From assembly GCA_963824995.1 (NCBI GenBank), contig CAWGRK010000008.1, positions 62,001 to 126,000 of the forward strand: 64,000 bases of DNA, written 5' to 3'. A model generated the notes under the pieces. That model was not told the origin of the DNA, made no database searches, and saw only the letters and a program-made list of their open reading frames with translations. Source of the stretch: an uncultured Actinomycetes bacterium (GTDB lineage: Bacteria; Actinomycetota; Acidimicrobiia; Spongiisociales; DATADW01). How positions within the stretch are numbered: the first letter of the stretch is position 1; each line of letters begins with the position of its first letter. Below, piece after piece: positions 20,015 to 32,700 of the stretch. Position numbers and translations under genes: made by a program.

Positions 20015-20052
20015 GGGCCTGTAGCTCAATTGGTAGAGCAGGGGACTTTTAA
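20015..20052 (+). repeat. tRNA-Lys(UUU) 5' half, copy 1 (att-like junction)
   Basis: 38/38 identical to 27625-27662; ends at anticodon loop CTTTTAA with no 3' half following. Confidence 0.92.
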
Positions 20053-20182
20053 GCCCGTTGGCGTCACCGCTGAGCTAAACCACGTTCTACCAGGCACTTC
20101 GCGCTCGGGCGACCACCGTCTAGGCGCGAATCCCTTGCTCTTGGCCATGGCCAGAAGTCCCTTGCTCTCTGGACTTGGAATC
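20053..20182 (+). repeat. Conserved non-coding arm, copy 1
   Basis: 48-nt block GCCCGTTGGCGT..CTACCAGGCACTTC, then 24 nt, CGCGAATCCCTTGCTCT, 13 nt, AAGTCCCTTGC. Confidence 0.9.
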
Positions 20183-20481
20183 AACGGAAAATTCACGCCA
20201 TCCAATCGGACCGAATTCCGTGGGTTGGACCTGCGGCCGAGAAGTCGATGCCGCCACCCCTGATGAAACAGGGACTCGAGGCGATTGGGTCGTCACACCC
20301 ACCTCCATCGGTGCGGGACACGGATCGCCAAGGGAGCGCCAGCGGACAACGACTGGAGGGAGCCCGTCAAGGCTAGCCAACCTCGACCGCCGTCCGGCTG
20401 AGTCGGACCCCGAAGAGCCGAAGTCTGCGATCCGAATGTGCTCTGCAAGTCGGAACTCGGAACGGGTCTTAGCATCTAGGA

Positions 20482-23356
20482 GTGCCAGGGCGCGAGGATC
20501 ATGATCTGGCCGGGGTCGGGGTTGCTCGCAGGCGATTGCCTGGCGAGGAGTGGACTCGACGGGAGCGCAGCCTGCTTGTCGGCCGTGAGGTCGAGGTCGC
20601 GGTGCTGGCGGACTTTCTCGTGGCTGGGTCGTCAATGCCCCAAGGGCTTGTGATCGACGGTGAGGCGGGGATCGGGAAGACAACGCTCTTCGACGCAACG
20701 TTGACGAAGGCGAGGGAGCACGGTTTTGCCATCTTCTCGTGCCGTCCGGCGGCTGCCGAGGCGGCCTTTTCGTTTGCCGCCCTCGCCGATCTCTTGAGCC
20801 CGGTGTTGCCAGAGGGGCTAGGGCGGTTGCCGGGGCCGCAGCGTCGTGCGCTTGCGGCGGCTTTGTTGCTGGACGAGCTCGAGGGGTCGGCGCCGGATAA
20901 GAGAGCGATCGCGTTCGCCGTGTATCAGCTTCTCCGTGAGCGTGGCGGCTCACCGCTGCTTATTGCGGTGGATGACGTGCAGTGGCTCGATGCGGCGTCG
21001 GCTTCGGTACTTGCGTTCGCGCTTCGGCGGCTGGCGGCGGCACCGGCGGCGATTCTCGTCGCACGCCGAAGCAGCGGCGGCGAACCAGCTCCGCTCGGGC
21101 TCGATCGCACGCTTCCGAGCGAACAGCTGCGGCGGTTGCGGCTCGGCCCGCTGAGTCTCGGCGCGACTCATCGGTTGCTGCGCGAGCGTGTCGGTGTCTC
21201 ATTTCCTCGACCGACGCTTGTCCAGCTTCATGAGACGTCGGGCGGGAATCCGTTCTATGCGCTCGAGCTTGGGCGCGCGCTCGAGCAGTCGGGTGGGCGC
21301 GCGGGCGCCGGTGAGCGGCTGACGGTTGCGACGTCAATCTCCGGTCTCGTCTCGGCTCGCTTGGCGGCGCTGTCGAAGGACGTTCGCGAGGTGCTCGAGC
21401 CGGTTGCGTTACTCAGCCAGCCGACGGTCTCGATCGTCGAGGCCGTGGCATCAGACACCACGACCGTGCTCGGGCGGCTTCGCACCGCGGAGGCTGCGGC
21501 GGTCGTTGATCTCGATGACGAGCGTGTTCGTTTCAGCCACCCCCTTCTGGCTGCATGCGTCGAGGCGGAGCTCGACCCCCGCCGGCGGCGATCGCTCCAC
21601 CGCCGGCTCGCAGAGCTGGTCGGCGATCCCGAGCAGCGAGCGCGGCATCTTGCCCTGGGTGCGAACGGGCCGTCAGGCGAGGTGGCCAAACAACTGGAGA
21701 GCGCCTCGGCGATTGCGGCGCTGCGTGGGGCTTCAGTGGCCGCAGCCGAGCTGGCGGAGCTCTCGGTCTCGCTCACTCCAGGCGATGCCGGCGAGGAGGT
21801 CCTGCGCCGCCGGCAGCTGCTCGCGGCTGACCATCATTATGCGAGCGGGGATGCGGAACGCCCGCGTGCAATCCTCGAGCGGCTCCTCGACCAGCTCCCC
21901 GCCGGTTCCGAACGCGCGAAGGTGTTGCGGCGGCTCGGCGAGTACTCACCGAACGACCTCGAGAAGTCGGAGCGACTTCTCGAGCAGGCGTTCCTCGAGG
22001 CCGCCTCCGATCCTCGGCTGCAGGCGGAGATCGTCACGCCACGAGTGAGTACGGCGGCTCTTCGCCACGGGCCGGCGGCAGCCGTGCAGCTGGCGCGGAA
22101 CTTGGCTCGAGTCGTTGAAGACAGCGGCGATCCTGTCCTGCTCGCCATGTTTCTGGCGGAACTCAGCTTCTCGGAGCTGCTCTCCACTGAAGGTTTGACG
22201 CCGGGAGTGCTCGAGCGGGCGCTCGAGCTCGAGCAGCATGTGGGGCCGCTTCCGTCACCCACCACACCTACCTTGATCGACGGAGTCCGCCTGATGTTCG
22301 CAGACGAGCACACGTCGGCGCGCGAAACCCTGCAGCGGGCGCACGACGCCGCTGTAGCCCGCGGCTCCGAGTCCGGACGGGACCGTGCCTTGCAATTTCT
22401 GACCGTGCTCGAGTGCCGCGCTGGTGATTGGAGACGCGCCGACGAGTATGCCGAGGCAATTGCTCCAGGCGGGGGAACAGTGGGGCCTCGAGCTTGAGGG
22501 CGCGCCGACGCTGTGGCTCCGGGGCCTGGTTGATGCCTACCTCGGCCGCCTCGACCAAGCTCGAGCCCGCGCCACGGAAGGAGTTGCGCGCTCGCGCGCC
22601 TGGAACGAGCAGGCGTTCCTCGCGCGGAACCTCGCCGTGCTCGGCCTGATCGACCTGTTCACCGGCGACTATCCGGCAGCGGCGGAGACGTTGGGTCCGC
22701 TCGTTCGCCGGAGGCAGGAAAGCGGTGCGGGCGAGCCGAGCGGATTCCCGCCCCGGGAGCTCGCGATCGAGGCGCTGGTTGCGGTCGGCGACTTGGACGA
22801 GGCCCGCGTCCAACTCGAATGGCTGGAGGAAGCCGGGCGCCGCCGGGCGACTCTCTGGCCGCTGGCGATGGGGGCGCGCTGCCGGGGTCTCCTCCAAGCT
22901 GCCGAGGGCGACCTCGAAGCGGCGCTGGCAAGCTGCGAGCAAGCGCTGAAGGTGCATGAGCGGATGCCAGTGCCGTTCGAGCACGCTCGCACACTGCTCA
23001 TCTACGGCACGATCCTTCGTCGCGCCAAGCGGCGACATGCAGCAAGGGAGGCGATCGAGGAGGCGCTGTCGATCTTCGAGTCGCTCCCGGCACCGGTCTG
23101 GGCGGAAAAGGCGCGCGCCGAGCATGCCCGTATCGGTGGCCGTGCGGCGGCGGGCGGCGGATTAACGCCGAGCGAGCGGCGGATCGCGGAGGTTGTTGCG
23201 GAGGGCAAGACAAACAAGGAAGCCGCGGCGGCGCTGTTCATCAGCGTCCATACCGTCGAAGACGCCCTGAAACGGATCTACCGCAAGCTCGGAGTCCGTT
23301 CGCGCACCGAGATGTCGCGCCGGCTCAACGGCGACCCGCAGAGCAAAGACCCCTGA
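20482..23356 (+). CDS. LAL-type AAA ATPase / LuxR regulator (frameshift near 22465; start uncertain)
   Basis: LVGREVE, GEAGIGKTTL, VDDVQWLD, GGNPFYALEL, FSHPL; C-term LTPSERRIA..IYRKLGVRSR. Confidence 0.85.
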
Positions 23357-23368
23357 TTTCAGGTCTTT
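23346..23368. promoter_or_regulatory. Imperfect inverted repeat, candidate LuxR operator
   Basis: AAGACCCCTGA-TT-TCAGGTCTT overlapping the regulator stop, upstream of the 23402 operon. Confidence 0.4.
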
Positions 23369-23401
23369 CGGGGTGACCGCTGCTGGCCCAAGCTTCGAGC
23401 T

Positions 23402-23665
23402 ATGCCCGAATACCTGGTCGAGCTCTACTCAGCCGCCGAACCGGACCCGGCTGCGCTCGCCCGCCTCGGCGACGGATCGGCAGTCCGATACCTGCGCTCG
23501 ATCCTGATCCCGAGCGACGAGACATCGCTCCACCTGTTCGCAGCCGAGTCCGCCGAGCGCGTCGCCGAAGCGTTTGAGCAAGCCGGTCTGACGGCAAACC
23601 GGGTCGTGGCAGCCGTGAACCTGCCACCGCCTACGACCGTAGGCAAGCAAAGGAGGAAGACATGA
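23402..23665 (+). CDS. Small DUF4242-like ferredoxin-fold protein
   Basis: MPEYLVELY..VRYLRSILIPSDETSLHLF.AES pattern. Confidence 0.65.
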   Translation: MPEYLVELYSAAEPDPAALARLGDGSAVRYLRSILIPSDETSLHLFAAESAERVAEAFEQAGLTANRVVAAVNLPPPTTVGKQRRKT

Positions 23666-24105
23666 CCAAAATCAAGGCAATCCTCGGATGGCGCAGGGCC
23701 GTCGTGGCAACGGTCGTAAGCGTCGCGACCGGTGCGGCGCAGGCGTCCGCGTCGAGCGCGCCGATCGTGATCACGTACGAGAAAACGTGCATCGAAGCGG
23801 CCGGTACATGCAGTGGGACCACCGGAAACGGCGACACGCTGACGATGTTGGTTACGGGCGGGCGTCCCACCGGCAAGGCCGCCCAGCTGACTATGACCGA
23901 GTCGATCGTCGGAGAGATCACGTTCGCCGCCGTGCTGAGCGGGCATTTCACCCCTGCGGGGTTCATTGTCATGAACGGCACAGTCACAGGCGGCCCGCAT
24001 GCGGGGGCGCAGGTCCACCAGCGAAGCAACCTGACGGGCGTCAGCAGCGACGGAACCACGACGACTTCGGAGGGAGAGCTCCGGATCATGCCAGCGAGCT
24101 CGTGA
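23662..24105 (+). CDS. Secreted hypothetical protein
   Basis: RBS AAGGAGG; signal peptide ending AQA/ASA; ATGA overlap with upstream gene. Confidence 0.7.
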   Translation: MTKIKAILGWRRAVVATVVSVATGAAQASASSAPIVITYEKTCIEAAGTCSGTTGNGDTLTMLVTGGRPTGKAAQLTMTESIVGEITFAAVLSGHFTPAGFIVMNGTVTGGPHAGAQVHQRSNLTGVSSDGTTTTSEGELRIMPASS

Positions 24106-24679
24106 ACCGGGAGCATCGGCGCCACTCGGCCGTGGCCGGGGTTCGTCTTCGTCATTGAGCATGCCCGCGGGTCGACGGACCCGGTCAAAGACCAAGACAC
24201 CCCGGTCTACCCGACAGACCGGGTCATCGACAGAACCTCCTACACCGACCGATACGGGCTCCTGTTCGAGCGCCTGGCGCCGCGAGCGGCTCTACGACGC
24301 TGCCTGCCTCATTAGTACGGAGCGCAACAAGGGCATCCACAGCGAACCCGCACCCGAGGTTTCGACATACACCTGACGGCAGCAAATCTCTGGCCGAGTT
24401 GCCTCATCAAGGGCTTGCTGTAGGAGCCTGCCATAGGAACGGTTGTCGGGTGCCGGGGGAGTGGCAAAGCGGTCGGAGTGGTGACACGTTCCTGCTGAAC
24501 CTGGGTAGGAGTGCCGGTGCCGTTCGTGCCGGTGGGGATAATCGTGACTATCTGCCAGACGGTTGGGACGGTCGAGCCGGTGTAGAGGCGACAAGTAGCC
24601 GTGGTACTACGAGGTCGTGGACTCGGACGATGTTCGTGATCAGCGCCAACAAAGCCCCTGGTAGAGAAGCTAAAACGCC

Positions 24680-24717
24680 GGGCCTGTAGCTCAATTGGTA
24701 GAGCGGGGGACTTTTAA
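24680..24717 (+). repeat. tRNA-Lys(UUU) 5' half, copy 2
   Basis: 37/38 identical to the intact tRNA 5' half; ends at anticodon loop. Confidence 0.92.
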
Positions 24718-24900
24718 GCCCGTTGGCGTTACCGCTGAGCTAGACCGTGTTCTACCAGGCACTTCGCGATCCGTCGACAACCTTCTAGACGCGAATCCCT
24801 TGCTCTAGCGAAGCGGGCAAAGTCCCTTGCGCTTGGGTGCTTGGAATCCATTGCTCCTGCCCTCTGACCGGAGTCACGGTTGTGCTGGAGGTTGGAACCA
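24718..24900 (+). repeat. Conserved non-coding arm, copy 2
   Basis: Same blocks and spacing as copy 1, plus GTTGTGCTGGAGGTTGGAACC (24879-24899) shared with copy 3. Confidence 0.9.
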
Positions 24901-25011
24901 ACCGAGTGTCGCCGAGGATCAGGAGCTCAGCGATCCGAGAGCCTGAGTAGCTGAACGCCCCCGACCAGGTTCATCTCGGCGCGGCGCTCCTCATGATCCG
25001 TCGGACAGGGA

Positions 25012-25464
25012 TCAATCACCGATGCCGCGTGCCATCAACACTGCGAACGTCGGGACCAGCACGAGGATCGCCAACTGCAGGTTGATCATCCTGCGAGCCG
25101 ACCCAACCACTTGGTCCGACGGCAGGGCCGACGGGTCTTCGTCGAGGGCCTTGCGCCAGCGGGCGTATCGGATCGTGGGCATGATCGACAGCAGCGCGAC
25201 CGCCACGAACGCCGCCATCTTCAACCAGAACGTAGTGCTCTCGAGATAGAACTCGGCGGGCTTGGCGCCCCAGATGACACGCGCCACTCCCGCGATGATC
25301 ACCGCCACTGCGACGACGCCGTATGCGGCGTCGACCCGCCCCAGCCAGCGGATGTCAGCAGCTGCCATTCCCCGCCGCACAAGGGCCCACTCCGCGGCGA
25401 GCACTGCCACGAGGCTGAACACAGCGAGATGATGAGCTATGGCGAGCCAAGCGTCGGTTGTCAT
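25012..25464 (-). CDS. DUF2214 family membrane protein
   Basis: AIAHHL, DAAYG, GAKPAEFY, FWLKM, LSIMPTI, MARGIG; RBS AGGAGG. Confidence 0.88.
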   Translation of the reverse strand: MTTDAWLAIAHHLAVFSLVAVLAAEWALVRRGMAAADIRWLGRVDAAYGVVAVAVIIAGVARVIWGAKPAEFYLESTTFWLKMAAFVAVALLSIMPTIRYARWRKALDEDPSALPSDQVVGSARRMINLQLAILVLVPTFAVLMARGIGD

Positions 25465-26493
25465 TTGCGACCTCCTATTCGTCGACGTCAGGTCGTCCTC
25501 TGGACGCCTACGCCGTTTGGATCAACCCGACGGCAAGCGTGATGAGTGCGGCGGCAATGAGCAGCGCGCCTGTCCGCGTGAGGTTGGTGCCAGCCGAGGG
25601 CCCGTCGGACCGCCGTCCTCAACGGCTGGGAGCTGCGTGGCGGCGAGCCAACACAGGTACACCCCTGGCGCAGAACACCTGACCGTGGGCCACATCTGCA
25701 CATAGGCGACGCCAGCGGAGATGTCCAGCTCGCCGCCGACCCCGATGAGAGCGCGAAACTGCAAGCCGATGAACCCCACTCACGTAACCCCCTTTCCGAG
25801 GCCAGTGTCGCCGTTACAAACTGGGGCCTCTTCCGTGCGAGGGAATGTCAGCACCTCTCACATCCTGGGAAACGCCAAGAAATGACCTCTGACCAGGTAA
25901 ACGCGCCTCACAGCACTTGTGGGCAATACTTGGCCTTCGCATCTTCTCCGTGCGCCCGAGCGCGCCATCCGATTGAGAACGATTCTCAACCTGTAGCTCC
26001 TATATTTTGCGACCTGCGCACACCGCGTCCAGCGAGCAGAGGGGGTCGCACCAGCAGTGGTGCCCGCACCCTCGCTCGCCCCGTACTCTCTCCTACTGCC
26101 TGAATCACGAAGAGCACGCTGACGATGGCGAGACCGGCGGCTGAAACGAAGCAAACGATGGCGCCGACAAGGCCTGGCTCGGCCTCGAAGCCGAATCAGT
26201 GCGGACCTCATAGAACCTCCCACGCCGATCTCGGGTCAACCTACGCCGTCAATATCTCCCGAGCCGTTCTCCGAGGTCCGCCCTTTGTGGTTGGCTGACG
26301 CGGTTGCTAGCGACGCGGCGCACGTGTCCGAACCACAGCGCTCAGGCGTTGATTTGTTAGCTCACCTTGGGCTTCATGGTCGAAGCCTCCAGGCAAGCAG
26401 AGCCATCGCGGCGTTGCGGGCCGCAGATTCCTGCCAACACCTGCCCTGATCGGGGCTGTCGTCACCCCCGAGTCTCATGCTTTTCGACCACTG

Positions 26494-26502
26494 TGCTAAC
26501 TT
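26494..26502 (+). promoter_or_regulatory. Extended -10 promoter candidate upstream of tRNA half copy 3
   Basis: TG-C-TAACTT matches TGnTAnnnT, about 50 nt upstream of 26555. Confidence 0.4.
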
Positions 26503-26554
26503 CGCGGCAAGGATGGCTGGACGCTGAAGCGCCTGGTAGTCGGCCATTTTTTGC

Positions 26555-26591
26555 GGGTCCGTAGCTCAAAGGCAGAGCGGGGGACTTTTAA
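26555..26591 (+). repeat. tRNA-Lys(UUU) 5' half, copy 3 (divergent allele)
   Basis: GGGTCCG TAGCTCAAAGGCAGAGC GGGGGA CTTTTAA; different acceptor strand and D-loop, but still pairs with the resident 3' strand CGGGCCC. Confidence 0.88.
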
Positions 26592-26782
26592 GCCCGTTGG
26601 CGTTACCGCTGAGCTAAACCGCGTTCTACCAGGCACTTCTCGGTCAGTCGACGTCCGTCCATGCGCGAATCCCTTGCTCTACCGATGGGCGTGAAATCCC
26701 TGCGCTTGGGTCTGAGTGTCGACTGCACCGCACTTTGACCGGGGCCGCGTGCCAGCAAGTAGTTGTGCTGAAGGTTGGAACC
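26592..26782 (+). repeat. Conserved non-coding arm, copy 3
   Basis: 46/48 identical to each other copy in the first block; same 24-nt and 13-nt spacers. Confidence 0.9.
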
Positions 26783-26875
26783 GACATGGTCGTCGGTGTC
26801 GTCGGAACGGAGTGAGACCGCAGCTGGTGCTGACTATCGCGTGGCGGTGACCCTTCGTCCCAGCAATACGTTTGT

Positions 26876-27238
26876 GTGACGATGGCCAACAGACGGGTGG
26901 CCGGCGGTGTGCTGGTCGTGTTGATGGCTTCGGCTTGCACATCCACGGCCAGCTCTGACACGGCCACCAGCGTCGAAGAGTCACCGCCGCCTTCTACATC
27001 CGTGACGAGCTCCTCCTCGCCCGAGGCTTCCTCGGATCGACTAAAGGCGGCTACCGGCGAGATTGGCGGTCCAGGCTGTGAGCCTTCGTCCCCTGTGGTT
27101 GCCTGGGGCTACGGCCTCGCCGAGTCGGTGGCAACCTCGGCGGACCTCCACTGTATGGGCGCTCCTCTCCACCCTGTCGCCCCTCAGACCGGAGCGGAGG
27201 TCAAGATCGTGTGGGTCACGCTGCCACGGCGGCTTTAA
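26876..27238 (+). CDS. Putative lipoprotein (possibly truncated)
   Basis: Signal peptide with MASAC lipobox-like site and Ser/Thr-rich linker. Confidence 0.45.
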   Translation: MTMANRRVAGGVLVVLMASACTSTASSDTATSVEESPPPSTSVTSSSSPEASSDRLKAATGEIGGPGCEPSSPVVAWGYGLAESVATSADLHCMGAPLHPVAPQTGAEVKIVWVTLPRRL

Positions 27239-27303
27239 ACGTGAGATATGCTGCGAGGCCTTCAAAGGCCGTCGCTTCGGCGCAGTGAACGTGGAGGGGA
27301 CGA

Positions 27304-27585
27304 ATGGCGATCAAGTCAATCGTCGAAATGAAGGCGAAGCCCGGAAGGCGCGACGAGCTGTTGAGCACGCTGCAGCAGATGTCAGCCGTCGATGCGCCGG
27401 GCTTCATCGCCGCGGAGCACTACCGCAACGTCGAGGATGAAGACACCGTCATCGGTATCTACGACTGGAAGTCGAACGAGGAGCGTGTGGCCTGGTCACA
27501 GTCGCTCGACCCCGGTACGCGGGAACAGTTGCTGGAAGTGCTCGCAACGCCCATGCGCATCGTTCTGGCTGATCACATTGAATAG
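27304..27585 (+). CDS. Antibiotic biosynthesis monooxygenase (ABM) family protein
   Basis: EMKAKPGRRDEL, APGFI, IYDWKS; RBS GGAGGGG. Confidence 0.8.
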   Translation: MAIKSIVEMKAKPGRRDELLSTLQQMSAVDAPGFIAAEHYRNVEDEDTVIGIYDWKSNEERVAWSQSLDPGTREQLLEVLATPMRIVLADHIE

Positions 27586-27624
27586 ACACGACGGCACTGT
27601 CCCTTGTAGATAAGCCGAAACGCC

Positions 27625-27697
27625 GGGCCTGTAGCTCAATTGGTAGAGCAGGGGACTTTTAATCCCAAGGTCGTGGGTTCGATTCCCACCGGGCCCA
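27625..27697 (+). tRNA. tRNA-Lys(UUU)
   Basis: Full cloverleaf: GGGCCTG/CGGGCCC acceptor, anticodon loop CTTTTAA, T-arm GTGGG-TTCGATT-CCCAC; CCA not encoded. Confidence 0.97.
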
Positions 27698-27908
27698 CTC
27701 CCCTGACCAGGCACTTCTACCCGATGCAACCACTCCGGCATCGCCTCCGAGGCGTCACGGGCGACACTCTCGACGACAAAGACAGTCTCGCCACCTGGAT
27801 TGGGCGATCTGGCGTCGCCGCTGCTGGCGTAGCGAATGGTGCGATCCGTCAGGCGATCACCGGATTGCGACGACGCACCGCAGGCAGAACTGGTGCATCA
27901 TGTGCCAC

Positions 27909-32590: not shown

Positions 32591-32601
32591 CGCCACAACG
32601 C

Positions 32602-32700
32602 GTTCATCGAGAGCGGTCGAGGGACGGGCCCTGCGACACCGCGGCAACCGGCTTCTGGCACGGTGCCAATGCCCGAACGATGAGCCGCCGACAGGCGGGG
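32602..32700 (+). ncRNA. SAM riboswitch (SAM-I/IV-like)
   Basis: P1 GTTCATC/GATGAGC, ATCGAGAG, GAGGGACGGGCCC, GGCAACC..GGTGCCAA core; no P4 but a 3' hairpin CCGCC-GACA-GGCGG; upstream of metE. Confidence 0.85.

What the first reader, a model, noticed from the sequence alone, without database searches (positions are those of the whole stretch)
20015..20100. Junctions are dyad-symmetric about a central TT in the anticodon loop
Seen: in copy 1, TAGCTCA (20022-20028, tRNA D-arm) and TGAGCTA (20071-20077, arm) are reverse complements centred at 20049.5. This is the same centre as CTT-TT-AAG (20046-20053). GGTA/TACC (CACC in copy 1) and GGG/CCC add near-symmetric pairs, and the pattern recurs in copies 2 and 3. 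The arm therefore mirrors the tRNA 5' half. Known: serine-integrase att sites are imperfect inverted repeats around a 2-bp crossover, tyrosine integrases use a 7-bp overlap such as an anticodon loop, and integron attC sites act as ssDNA hairpins. Inference: this is a recombinase-recognised site. The enzyme class cannot be decided from the sequence alone.
Basis: partly seen in the sequence, partly recalled or inferred. Interest (0 to 1): 0.75.

Follow-up and report, generated by a model that had tools for sequence, protein, structure and literature searches.

The report
Island junctions in a tRNA-Lys gene

Summary
The sequence features are real. TAGCTCA/TGAGCTA and CTT-TT-AAG share the centre 20049.5 in copy 1 and 24714.5 in copy 2. 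In the third copy the two centres differ by half a base. The symmetry is only modestly above chance, and ssDNA folding is unremarkable.

The three copies (20015, 24680, 26555) are attL-type junctions. Each is tRNA-Lys(UUU) positions 1-38, ending exactly at the anticodon loop, fused to a conserved element arm. They lie upstream of the intact tRNA (27625-27698) and bound three tandem islands with no integrase.

A same-genus genome has the same array with a 13.9-kb element. That element carries a Xer-like (CB+CAT) tyrosine integrase about 100 bp from the tRNA 5' end.

Relatives of this integrase sit next to a tRNA gene in 72 of 80 loci. The tRNA half nearest the integrase gene is the one repeated, and the repeat stops at one or other edge of the 7-nt anticodon loop. 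That loop is therefore the crossover region.

The box also occurs where it faces the T-arm, so a mirror of the D-arm is not the working principle.

This is a known kind of site and a probably undescribed element family.

The parts
20015..20052 (+). Junction 1: displaced tRNA-Lys(UUU) 5' half, tRNA positions 1-38. Includes the D-arm word TAGCTCA (20022-20028) and the anticodon loop CTTTTAA (20046-20052), which is the inferred 7-bp overlap.
   Evidence: identical to positions 1-38 of the intact gene at 27625. Identity stops after the loop.
20053..20185 (+). Integrase-distal (P') arm of island 1.
   Evidence: Searches show conservation among the three copies. Searches show homology to the arms of integrase-bearing elements.
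20053..24679 (+). Island 1, about 4.6 kb. Carries an AAA_16/TPR/LuxR-type regulator in two overlapping frames (20482-22497 and 22424-23356) and unassigned ORFs. No recombinase.
   Evidence: Pfam. 97% identical to the array-distal island of the same-genus genome. tblastn with 23 integrases found nothing better than E=0.037.
24680..24717 (+). Junction 2: tRNA-Lys 5' half (A26G variant) supplied by the right end of island 1. Loop at 24711-24717.
24718..26554 (+). Island 2, about 1.8 kb. Begins with the P' arm (B box 24733-24740, TGAGCTA 24736-24742) and carries a DUF2214 membrane protein gene (25012-25464, minus strand).
26555..26591 (+). Junction 3: diverged tRNA-Lys 5' half (GGGTCCG acceptor strand, D-loop 1 nt shorter). 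Loop at 26585-26591.
   Evidence: The variant acceptor strand can still pair with the resident 3' strand CGGGCCC through one G-U pair (read from the sequence).
26592..27624 (+). Island 3, about 1.0 kb. Begins with the P' arm (TGAGCTA 26610-26616) and carries an ABM-domain ORF at 27304-27585. Its right end supplies the promoter-proximal DNA and the 5' half of the working tRNA.
   Evidence: The 25 nt upstream of copy 2 and of the intact gene are alike, but those upstream of copy 1 differ (family D2).
27625..27698 (+). Intact tRNA-Lys(UUU), the attR-type junction and the target for further insertions. Its trailer holds ACCAGGCACTTC at 27706-27717.
   Evidence: ARAGORN. Rfam tRNA 75 bits.

Best explanation
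Positions 20015-20100 are the first of three attL-type junctions in a tandem array of small integrated elements at a tRNA-Lys(UUU) gene.

Each element integrated by tyrosine-recombinase crossover inside the 7-nt anticodon loop. [quoted passage not shown]

After insertion, the old chromosomal 5' half is left behind fused to the element's integrase-distal arm. The element's own 5' half joins the resident 3' half to rebuild a working tRNA at the other end.

Repeated insertion into the rebuilt gene stacked three islands, with the newest nearest the tRNA. All three have since lost the integrase and its neighbouring arm, so they are probably immobile remnants or movable only in trans.

Shown here: the repeat structure, the sharp identity boundary at the loop, the cognate integrase in a congener, and the family-wide rule that the integrase-proximal tRNA half is the repeated one.

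Inferred: the 7-bp overlap and cleavage at the loop edges, the order of arrival, and protein binding at the conserved arm boxes.

Its perfect complementarity to the D-arm word TAGCTCA is not required in the family.
For: (1) The tRNA half appears four times in the window, three times fused to a 127-nt arm that is 80-91% conserved. The own genome has no further arm copies.

(2) Identity to the intact gene ends exactly after CTTTTAA in all three copies.

(3) Same-genus genome G004 has the same first island (97%). It then has a 13.85-kb element with a Phage_integrase plus SAM-like gene that starts 97 bp from the tRNA 5' end, and a frameshifted TrwC relaxase.

(4) The integrase alignment keeps R152, K176, H242, R245, W268 and Y277 invariant in 23 sequences.

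(5) Relatives (34-60% identity) have a tRNA gene beside the integrase start in 25 of 31 loci. In the second set the figure is 72 of 80 loci: 57 divergent and 15 co-directional. The two sets overlap.

(6) Where both element ends were found, divergent elements repeat tRNA position 1 up to the loop end, plus 0-3 nt. This holds for L081, L082/L109, L085, L086/L161, L090, L104, L125, L129, L162 and L179. Co-directional elements repeat from the loop start (minus 0-5 nt) to the 3' end. This holds for L095, L096, L099, L100, L170, L176/L177 and L181. The only segment common to both classes is the 7-nt loop.

(7) The arm box CGCTGTGC, with at most 1 mismatch at offset 15-16, occurs in 14 of 19 junctions outside the window lineage, in both orientation classes. 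Shuffled arms give a mean of 0.48 and a maximum of 3 (alignments). The motif was derived from these same arms, so the shuffle contrast is partly circular.

(8) Published passages agree. Anticodon-centred att sites, 5' tDNA-fragment islands (159 of 3919) and tandem arrays are all recorded in Islander Table 1. The 7-bp loop with its palindromic stem matches a lambda-type core.
Against: - No integrase of this family is in the window. None is in the 85%-complete own genome, which has only two Xer-like genes at 32-33% identity. The link to the enzyme is therefore by homology of the arms and by a congener, not direct.
- No recombination was observed. The two suggestive joints in soil-metagenome contigs are single low-depth contigs across repeats.
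- The first 12 bp of the arms next to the loop, where a core half-site should lie, are not conserved across the family, so the half-sites remain undefined.
- The genomes are metagenome bins, and tandem repeats can be misassembled. G004 copy 2 has an odd 25-nt partial duplication.
- In 7 of 13 divergent loci and 4 of 8 co-directional loci that were fetched, no second junction was found within the DNA held. Most of those contigs end early.
Confidence: 0.85

Rival explanations
1. The extended dyad is functional. A protein pair recognises TAGCTCAG in the D-arm and its mirror in the arm, about 21-28 bp either side of the crossover. This would give a roughly 56-bp pseudo-palindromic site and would explain how the family can hop between tRNA genes.
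For: The symmetry is above shuffles in copies 1 and 2, and in one relative, L125 (18 of 29, P=0.006). The family consensus of the arm box with its two following bases, CTGTGCTA, differs from the mirrored D-arm CTGAGCTA at one base and sits at a near-mirror distance. The best centre is the same half-base offset in 9 of 15 junctions.
Against: - The exact mirror is in 0 of 11 relatives, and 11 of 12 non-window junctions are no better than shuffles.
- The same box, at the same offset, occurs in 5 of 8 co-directional junctions, where it faces the T-arm rather than the D-arm.
- The position lies outside the usual 11-13 bp half-site of a CB+CAT recombinase (general knowledge).
- The G004 copy has TGAGCCA.
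Confidence: 0.1
2. A serine-integrase att site with a central TT dinucleotide crossover.
Against: No serine recombinase domain was found in the Pfam scans of the chosen ORFs of the window islands, of the G004 element, or of four related elements. The gene next to the site in 72 of 80 related loci is a tyrosine recombinase. Identity blocks end at both edges of a 7-nt segment.
Confidence: 0.01
3. A site that works as a folded single strand, like an integron attC or the CTX phage attP, perhaps after conjugative entry as ssDNA.
For: The integrase is Xer-like. Some family elements carry a TrwC relaxase. A TAGCTCA/TGAGCTA stem appears in the predicted folds.
Against: Folding energies are ordinary: z = -1.28, -1.24 and +0.44. 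The stem is not conserved in relatives. The integrase scores 21 bits against the integron-integrase model, whose cutoff is 265. A 38-nt identity that rebuilds the gene fits duplex recombination.
Confidence: 0.02
4. tRNA pseudogenes or tRNA-like RNA genes made by segmental duplication, with no site-specific recombination.
For: The Rfam tRNA model aligns copies 1 and 2 end to end at 26.6 and 26.5 bits, just under the 29-bit threshold. CAGGCAC can pair with the 5' acceptor strand.
Against: The score comes from the 5' half. ARAGORN does not call these copies. The supposed acceptor pairing is part of the family box CAGGTCA, which does not match the acceptor strands of the other tRNAs. The breakpoint is identical in all copies and in relatives that carry integrases.
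Confidence: 0.02

Closest known systems
tDNA genomic islands with an anticodon-centred att site and a displaced 5' tDNA fragment (Islander database, Hudson, Lau and Williams 2015, PMC4383910; passages and Table 1 seen)
   Same: An intact tRNA gene plus a direct-repeat fragment marks the island ends. The crossover is centred on the anticodon. Tandem arrays occur: the table lists 125 arrays of 2 or more and 4 arrays of 3 or more. 5' fragments are recorded for 159 of 3919 islands.
   Different: That pipeline requires an integrase in each island and excludes Xer-like integrases. These three islands have none, and the cognate enzyme is Xer-like. Arrays like this one would therefore be filtered out.
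pTN3-like integrases of Thermococcales, whose attB is the 5' half of a tRNA gene (as described in the review PMC8371274; passages seen)
   Same: The element carries the 5' part of the tRNA gene and rebuilds an uninterrupted gene.
   Different: Those are archaeal. No sequence comparison was made here. The same review says that, with very few exceptions, bacterial recombinant tRNA genes keep their original promoter, so this bacterial family is on the rare side.
Simple (CB+CAT, armless) tyrosine recombinases borne by mobile elements, such as the IntBrujita subgroup (Smyshlyaev et al. 2021, PMC8138268; passages seen)
   Same: Two-domain architecture with no arm-binding domain detected. Used for integration in Actinobacteria-related hosts.
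   Different: Only 32-35% identity to the best phage integrases, which is no closer than to the host's own Xer proteins. Membership of that subgroup was not tested by phylogeny.
Lambda-type core organisation mapped onto the anticodon stem-loop (Campbell; Williams 2002). Cited through. The Williams paper itself is not held, so it is recalled.
   Same: A 7-bp overlap equal to the loop, with the stem as flanking dyad. This is the real and already known basis of the inner CTT/AAG and GGG/CCC symmetry.
   Different: In the attL junction only 3 of 5 stem positions survive on the arm side. In the other family members, the first bases of the arm show no evident match to the anticodon-stem complement.
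Integrase-less elements flanked by att sites in accreted arrays (CIMEs of the ICESt1/ICESt3 group; recalled, no call)
   Same: DNA bounded by att sites without its own recombination genes, lying in tandem with related elements.
   Different: Mobilisation in trans was not tested here. A helper is present only in a congener.

Membership tests
tRNA-gene integrative island, anticodon-loop sublocation | An intact tRNA gene and a direct-repeat fragment of it bound the inserted DNA | tested here: met
   three 5' fragments lie in direct orientation upstream of the intact gene.
tRNA-gene integrative island, anticodon-loop sublocation | The identity between the two junctions ends at the anticodon loop | tested here: met
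   for the window. for 10 divergent and 7 co-directional relatives with clean boundaries. An eleventh divergent relative, L091, is degenerate.
tRNA-gene integrative island, anticodon-loop sublocation | A tyrosine integrase gene lies inside the island next to an att site | tested here: not met
   None in the window islands or in the own genome. Met in the congener's element and in 72 of 80 related loci.
tRNA-gene integrative island, anticodon-loop sublocation | Demonstrated integration or excision | not testable with these tools
   Only two weak single-contig joints were seen in metagenome contigs.
Simple (CB+CAT) tyrosine recombinase | A catalytic domain with the R-K-H-R-H/W-Y residues | tested here: met
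   Pfam PF00589 at E=1.3e-18. R152, K176, H242, R245, W268 and Y277 are invariant in 23 sequences.
Simple (CB+CAT) tyrosine recombinase | A SAM-like core-binding domain and no arm-binding domain | tested here: met
   PF13495/PF02899 match from residue 13 of 302, leaving no room or hit for an arm-binding domain. No structure was predicted.
XerC/XerD chromosome-dimer resolvase | Score above the equivalog cutoff | tested here: not met
   115 and 112.7 bits against cutoffs of 329.6 and 335.15.
Integron attC / IntI | A stable single-strand hairpin and an IntI-type integrase | tested here: not met
   Fold z = -1.28, -1.24 and +0.44. Integron-integrase model 21 bits against a cutoff of 265.
Serine-integrase att site | An associated serine recombinase and a 2-bp crossover | tested here: not met
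   No such domain in the ORFs scanned. The identity-block boundaries define a 7-nt segment. The crossover itself was not mapped.

The most novel reading that the evidence does not exclude
These junctions may reveal an undescribed, widespread family of Xer-like integrases in Acidimicrobiia and Chloroflexota.

The family mostly replaces the promoter and 5' half of tRNA genes. It uses either half of the gene by flipping about the anticodon loop. It has spread over at least a dozen tRNA identities.

Its attP would have a fixed outer layer of sites beyond the normal core: a CGCTGTGC box at 15-16 bp and a CAGGTCA box at about 38 bp on the integrase-distal arm.

In the boldest form, the outer box began as, and in this lineage still works as, a mirror of the universally conserved D-arm. 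That would give a roughly 56-bp pseudo-palindromic synaptic site.
Probability: 0.15. Interest if true: 0.6.

Novelty: new member of a known kind. Interest (0 to 1): 0.35.

Why it matters
For the finding itself, the result turns an intriguing palindrome into an ordinary and well-understood object: an att junction in a tRNA anticodon loop.

Three things remain useful.

1. It shows how a tRNA locus in an uncultured soil Acidimicrobiia-like lineage collects and then erodes small islands. Two congeners share the oldest island and differ next to the tRNA.

2. The responsible integrases are Xer-like and mostly carry the 5' half of the gene. A review calls this configuration a rare exception in bacteria. 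The standard island finder excludes Xer-like enzymes, so such islands are likely under-counted.

3. The conserved arm boxes at fixed spacing give a concrete, testable handle on how an armless integrase achieves site choice.

Tried and rejected
- **Whole tRNA-like RNA.** I first read copies 1 and 2 as possible whole tRNA-like RNAs, because Rfam aligned them end to end (26.6 and 26.5 bits) and a YrlA hit appeared (24.5 bits against a threshold of 69). Rejected: the apparent acceptor pairing is part of a family arm box unrelated to the other tRNAs' acceptor strands.
- **GAATCCCTTGCTCT repeats as inverted tRNA copies.** I considered that these repeats are inverted copies of tRNA positions 21-34, and that the integrase-proximal arm holds an inverted copy of the whole tRNA 5' half. 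Rejected: local alignment against shuffles gave p<=0.05 in only 5 of 57 loci, with median z 0.24.
- **CCWGG box required downstream of the target tRNA.** I considered this requirement. It was present in 7 of 54 distinct loci, against a background of 0.16, so it is not enriched.
- **Integrase remnants in the window.** None found. The best tblastn hit was E=0.037.
- **Earlier notes of this scan.** None for this place.
- **Public runs.** Shares were at most 0.18. Laying four runs gave fragmentary contigs. Two single-contig joints appeared: X12 skips 20160 to 26700 (depth 3.35), and X1 goes back from 27597 to 24650 with 17 other letters between (depth 8.99). Both span repeats at 90% likeness and may come from related strains, so they are not counted as evidence of excision.
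- **Williams 2002.** The paper could not be read.
- **Literature on this family.** One search for Acidimicrobiia, tyrosine integrase and tRNA islands found nothing specific to it (listing only).

Full report
**What is in the sequence**

The window holds one intact tRNA-Lys(UUU) gene at 27625-27698. Upstream of it are three partial copies, starting at 20015, 24680 and 26555.

Each partial copy equals tRNA positions 1-38. It runs through the anticodon loop CTTTTAA and stops there. After the loop, all three continue with the same arm. The arm is 80-91% identical over the 127-nt repeat unit, which includes the tRNA half.

The arm is not found anywhere else in the 2.9-Mb, 85%-complete genome.

These are correct for copies 1 and 2. 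TAGCTCA and TGAGCTA share a centre with CTT-TT-AAG, at 20049.5 and 24714.5. In the third copy the D-loop is one base shorter, so the two centres differ by half a base (26589 against 26588.5).

**Is it more than chance?**

I kept the tRNA half fixed and shuffled the arm.

| Junction | Mirrored pairs | P at fixed centre | P, best of 19 centres |
|---|---|---|---|
| Copy 1 | 16 of 29 | 0.007 | 0.014-0.017 |
| Copy 2 | 15 of 29 | 0.019 | 0.046-0.050 |

The three arms are copies of one another, so this is in effect one observation of modest strength.

As single-stranded DNA the 86-nt junctions fold no better than shuffles. The z-scores were -1.28, -1.24 and +0.44. The 58-nt core gave -1.88, with 6 of 200 shuffles folding at least as well. 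I did not fold them as RNA.

**What the junctions are**

The DNA between the copies (4.6, 1.8 and 1.0 kb) carries:
- a LuxR-type regulator split over two frames
- a DUF2214 membrane protein
- an ABM-domain ORF
- unassigned ORFs

It carries no recombinase. A tblastn search with 23 family integrases found nothing better than E=0.037.

A genome of the same genus (G004) has the same first island at 97% identity. Between that island and the intact tRNA it has a 13.85-kb element.

That element encodes a 302-residue protein with a SAM-like core-binding domain and a Phage_integrase catalytic domain. The gene starts 97 bp from the 5' end of the tRNA and reads away from it. The element also has a frameshifted TrwC relaxase and cargo genes.

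Two other congeners have the tRNA without the arm-bearing junctions. One of them keeps a 25-residue remnant of the integrase N-terminus beside the tRNA, a weak match (60% identity, E=0.12). The other has a small conventional island marked by a repeat of tRNA positions 30-74.

The own genome has only two Xer-like genes, at 32-33% identity to the island integrase.

**The family rule and the crossover**

*How often a tRNA gene lies beside the integrase*

Relatives of the integrase (34-60% identity) were found in 29 of 401 genomes of the class. A wider scan kept 80 loci. The named ones are mostly Acidimicrobiia and Chloroflexota bins, plus one isolate, Actinospongicola halichondriae (L104).

A tRNA gene lies within a few hundred bases of the integrase start in 25 of 31 loci and in 72 of 80 loci. 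The two sets overlap.

Of the 72, the tRNA is divergent in 57, with its 5' end next to the integrase. It is co-directional in 15. At least twelve anticodon classes are used.

*Where the repeated segment ends*

In divergent elements where both ends lay in the DNA held, the repeat runs from tRNA position 1 to the end of the anticodon loop, plus 0-3 nt. This held for ten distinct elements. An eleventh, L091, is degenerate.

In co-directional elements the repeat runs from the loop start, minus 0-5 nt, to the 3' end. This held for seven distinct elements.

The integrase-proximal half of the tRNA is therefore always the half the element carries. The only segment common to all repeats is the 7-nt loop.

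This is the signature of a tyrosine recombinase with a 7-bp overlap. It matches the published description of anticodon-loop sites (passages).

*Misses*

No second junction was found in 7 of 13 divergent and 4 of 8 co-directional loci fetched; most of those contigs end early. In the ±10-kb loci, only 11 of 72 showed a second junction.

**What the TGAGCTA word is**

I aligned the integrase-distal arms, rotating those of the co-directional elements. This shows a conserved box, consensus CGCTGTGC, starting 15-16 bp beyond the loop. A second box, CAGGTCA, lies near +38.

| Box | With at most 1 mismatch, of 19 junctions outside the window lineage | Shuffled arms |
|---|---|---|
| CGCTGTGC | 14 (9 of 11 divergent, 5 of 8 co-directional) | mean 0.48, maximum 3 |
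| CAGGTCA | 11 | mean 0.54, maximum 3 |

The motifs were derived from the same arms, so the contrast is partly circular. The fixed offset is the stronger point.

The family consensus of the box with its two following bases (CTGTGCTA) is one base away from the mirrored D-arm (CTGAGCTA). That is why a near-mirror is seen. Three results argue against the mirror being functional:
- The exact mirror occurs in 0 of 11 relatives.
- Only 1 of 12 non-window junctions beats shuffles.
- The same box keeps its place in elements where it faces the T-arm.

I conclude that the extended dyad is not the working principle. I cannot exclude that the box arose from such a mirror.

What binds the boxes is unknown. 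The integrase has no arm-binding domain. A further integrase protomer or an accessory protein is possible; both are inference.

**Mechanism**

Inferred except where noted:

1. The element circle carries attP. This consists of the integrase gene, about 100-250 bp of arm, the tRNA 5' half, the loop, and then the distal arm with its boxes.
2. Recombination with the chromosomal gene inside the loop leaves the old 5' half joined to the distal arm. That is the junction at 20015.
3. The element's 5' half and upstream DNA are placed in front of the resident 3' half. The tRNA is then expressed from element DNA.
4. The rebuilt gene is again a target, so new arrivals stack next to the tRNA.

Two observations are consistent with this:
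- The window genome and G004 share the distal island but differ proximally.
- The roughly 25 nt upstream of copy 2 and of the intact gene resemble each other and the element ends of G004 and G005, but not the DNA upstream of copy 1.

The diverged 5' half at 26555 can still pair with the resident acceptor 3' strand (read from the sequence).

**Comparison with what is known**

Already described:
- Anticodon-centred att sites.
- Displaced 5' tDNA fragments: 159 of 3919 Islander islands (Table 1).
- Tandem arrays (Table 1).

A review states that, with very few exceptions, bacterial recombinant tRNA genes keep their own promoter. It also states that archaeal pTN3-like integrases use the 5' half (passages).

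Simple two-domain tyrosine recombinases on mobile elements are known, for example the Brujita group (passages). The present integrase is only 32-35% identical to the best phage integrases. It falls far below the XerC/XerD cutoffs.

The Islander method excludes Xer-like integrases and requires an integrase in each island. Arrays like this one would therefore be missed.

I found no paper on this family. That rests on one search, of which I saw the listing only.

**Verdict**

The interpretation as a recombinase site is right, and the enzyme class can be named. The object is a new member of a known kind.

Noticed in passing
window 20089-20100 and 27706-27717: The 12-mer ACCAGGCACTTC occurs in the element arm, 36 nt after the loop. 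It also occurs in the chromosomal trailer 8 nt after the intact tRNA. G002 and G005 have near-identical trailers, but G004 does not. A CAGGTCA-like word follows the tRNA in several related loci, though CCWGG is not enriched there (7 of 54). Unexplained.
   Followed up: partly
window 20128-20141, 20155-20168, 24793-24806, 24820-24833, 26667-26680; L036 1548-1561 and 1583-1596: GAATCCCTTGCTCT-like repeats lie in the arms. In G004 they also lie beside the integrase start. They match the reverse complement of tRNA positions 21-34 at 11 of 14 bases. The family-wide test for an inverted tRNA half in the proximal arm was negative. They may be operator or accessory sites.
   Followed up: partly
window 20142-20153: A perfect 12-bp palindrome, TGGCCATGGCCA, lies between the two arm repeats of copy 1. 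It is 10 bp long in G004 and absent from copies 2 and 3'.
   Followed up: no
window 20482-22497 and 22424-23356: A large AAA_16 / TPR / LuxR-type regulator is split over two overlapping frames in island 1. This is either a frameshift or two genes.
   Followed up: no
window 32601-32686: A SAM riboswitch (S box), 67.8 bits. It is conserved at the same relative place in G002 and G005.
   Followed up: no
L038 6985-7874 (G002): The same tRNA-Lys gene carries a conventional island of about 0.8 kb, bounded by a repeat of tRNA positions 30-74. The island has TTGGTAGGCA direct repeats and a small ribbon-helix-helix-like ORF. Both halves of this gene are therefore used as island borders within one genus.
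   Followed up: partly
L036 15320-15352 (G004): Junction 2 of the congener has an extra 25-nt partial copy of the tRNA 5' end directly before a slightly damaged 5' half. This is either an assembly artefact or the scar of a further event.
   Followed up: no
L081 127-6995: A 6.8-kb family member at a tRNA-Met gene carries a DUF3987 protein and an HK97-type capsid protein. This looks like a phage satellite rather than a mobilisable island. Another member (L179) has a full TrwC relaxase.
   Followed up: partly
window 27597 / 24650 and 20160 / 26700: One soil-metagenome contig joins the right end of island 3 back to the start of junction 2. Another skips from arm 1 to arm 3. These could be circles, deletions or other island orders in related strains, or they could be repeat artefacts.
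   Followed up: partly
L085, L090 proximal arms: On the integrase strand, the proximal-arm boxes read as a good sigma-70-type promoter (TTGCAT, 17 nt, TAACAT or TAATAT) aimed at the integrase gene. The arm boxes may therefore double as promoter or operator elements. This was read by eye only.
   Followed up: no
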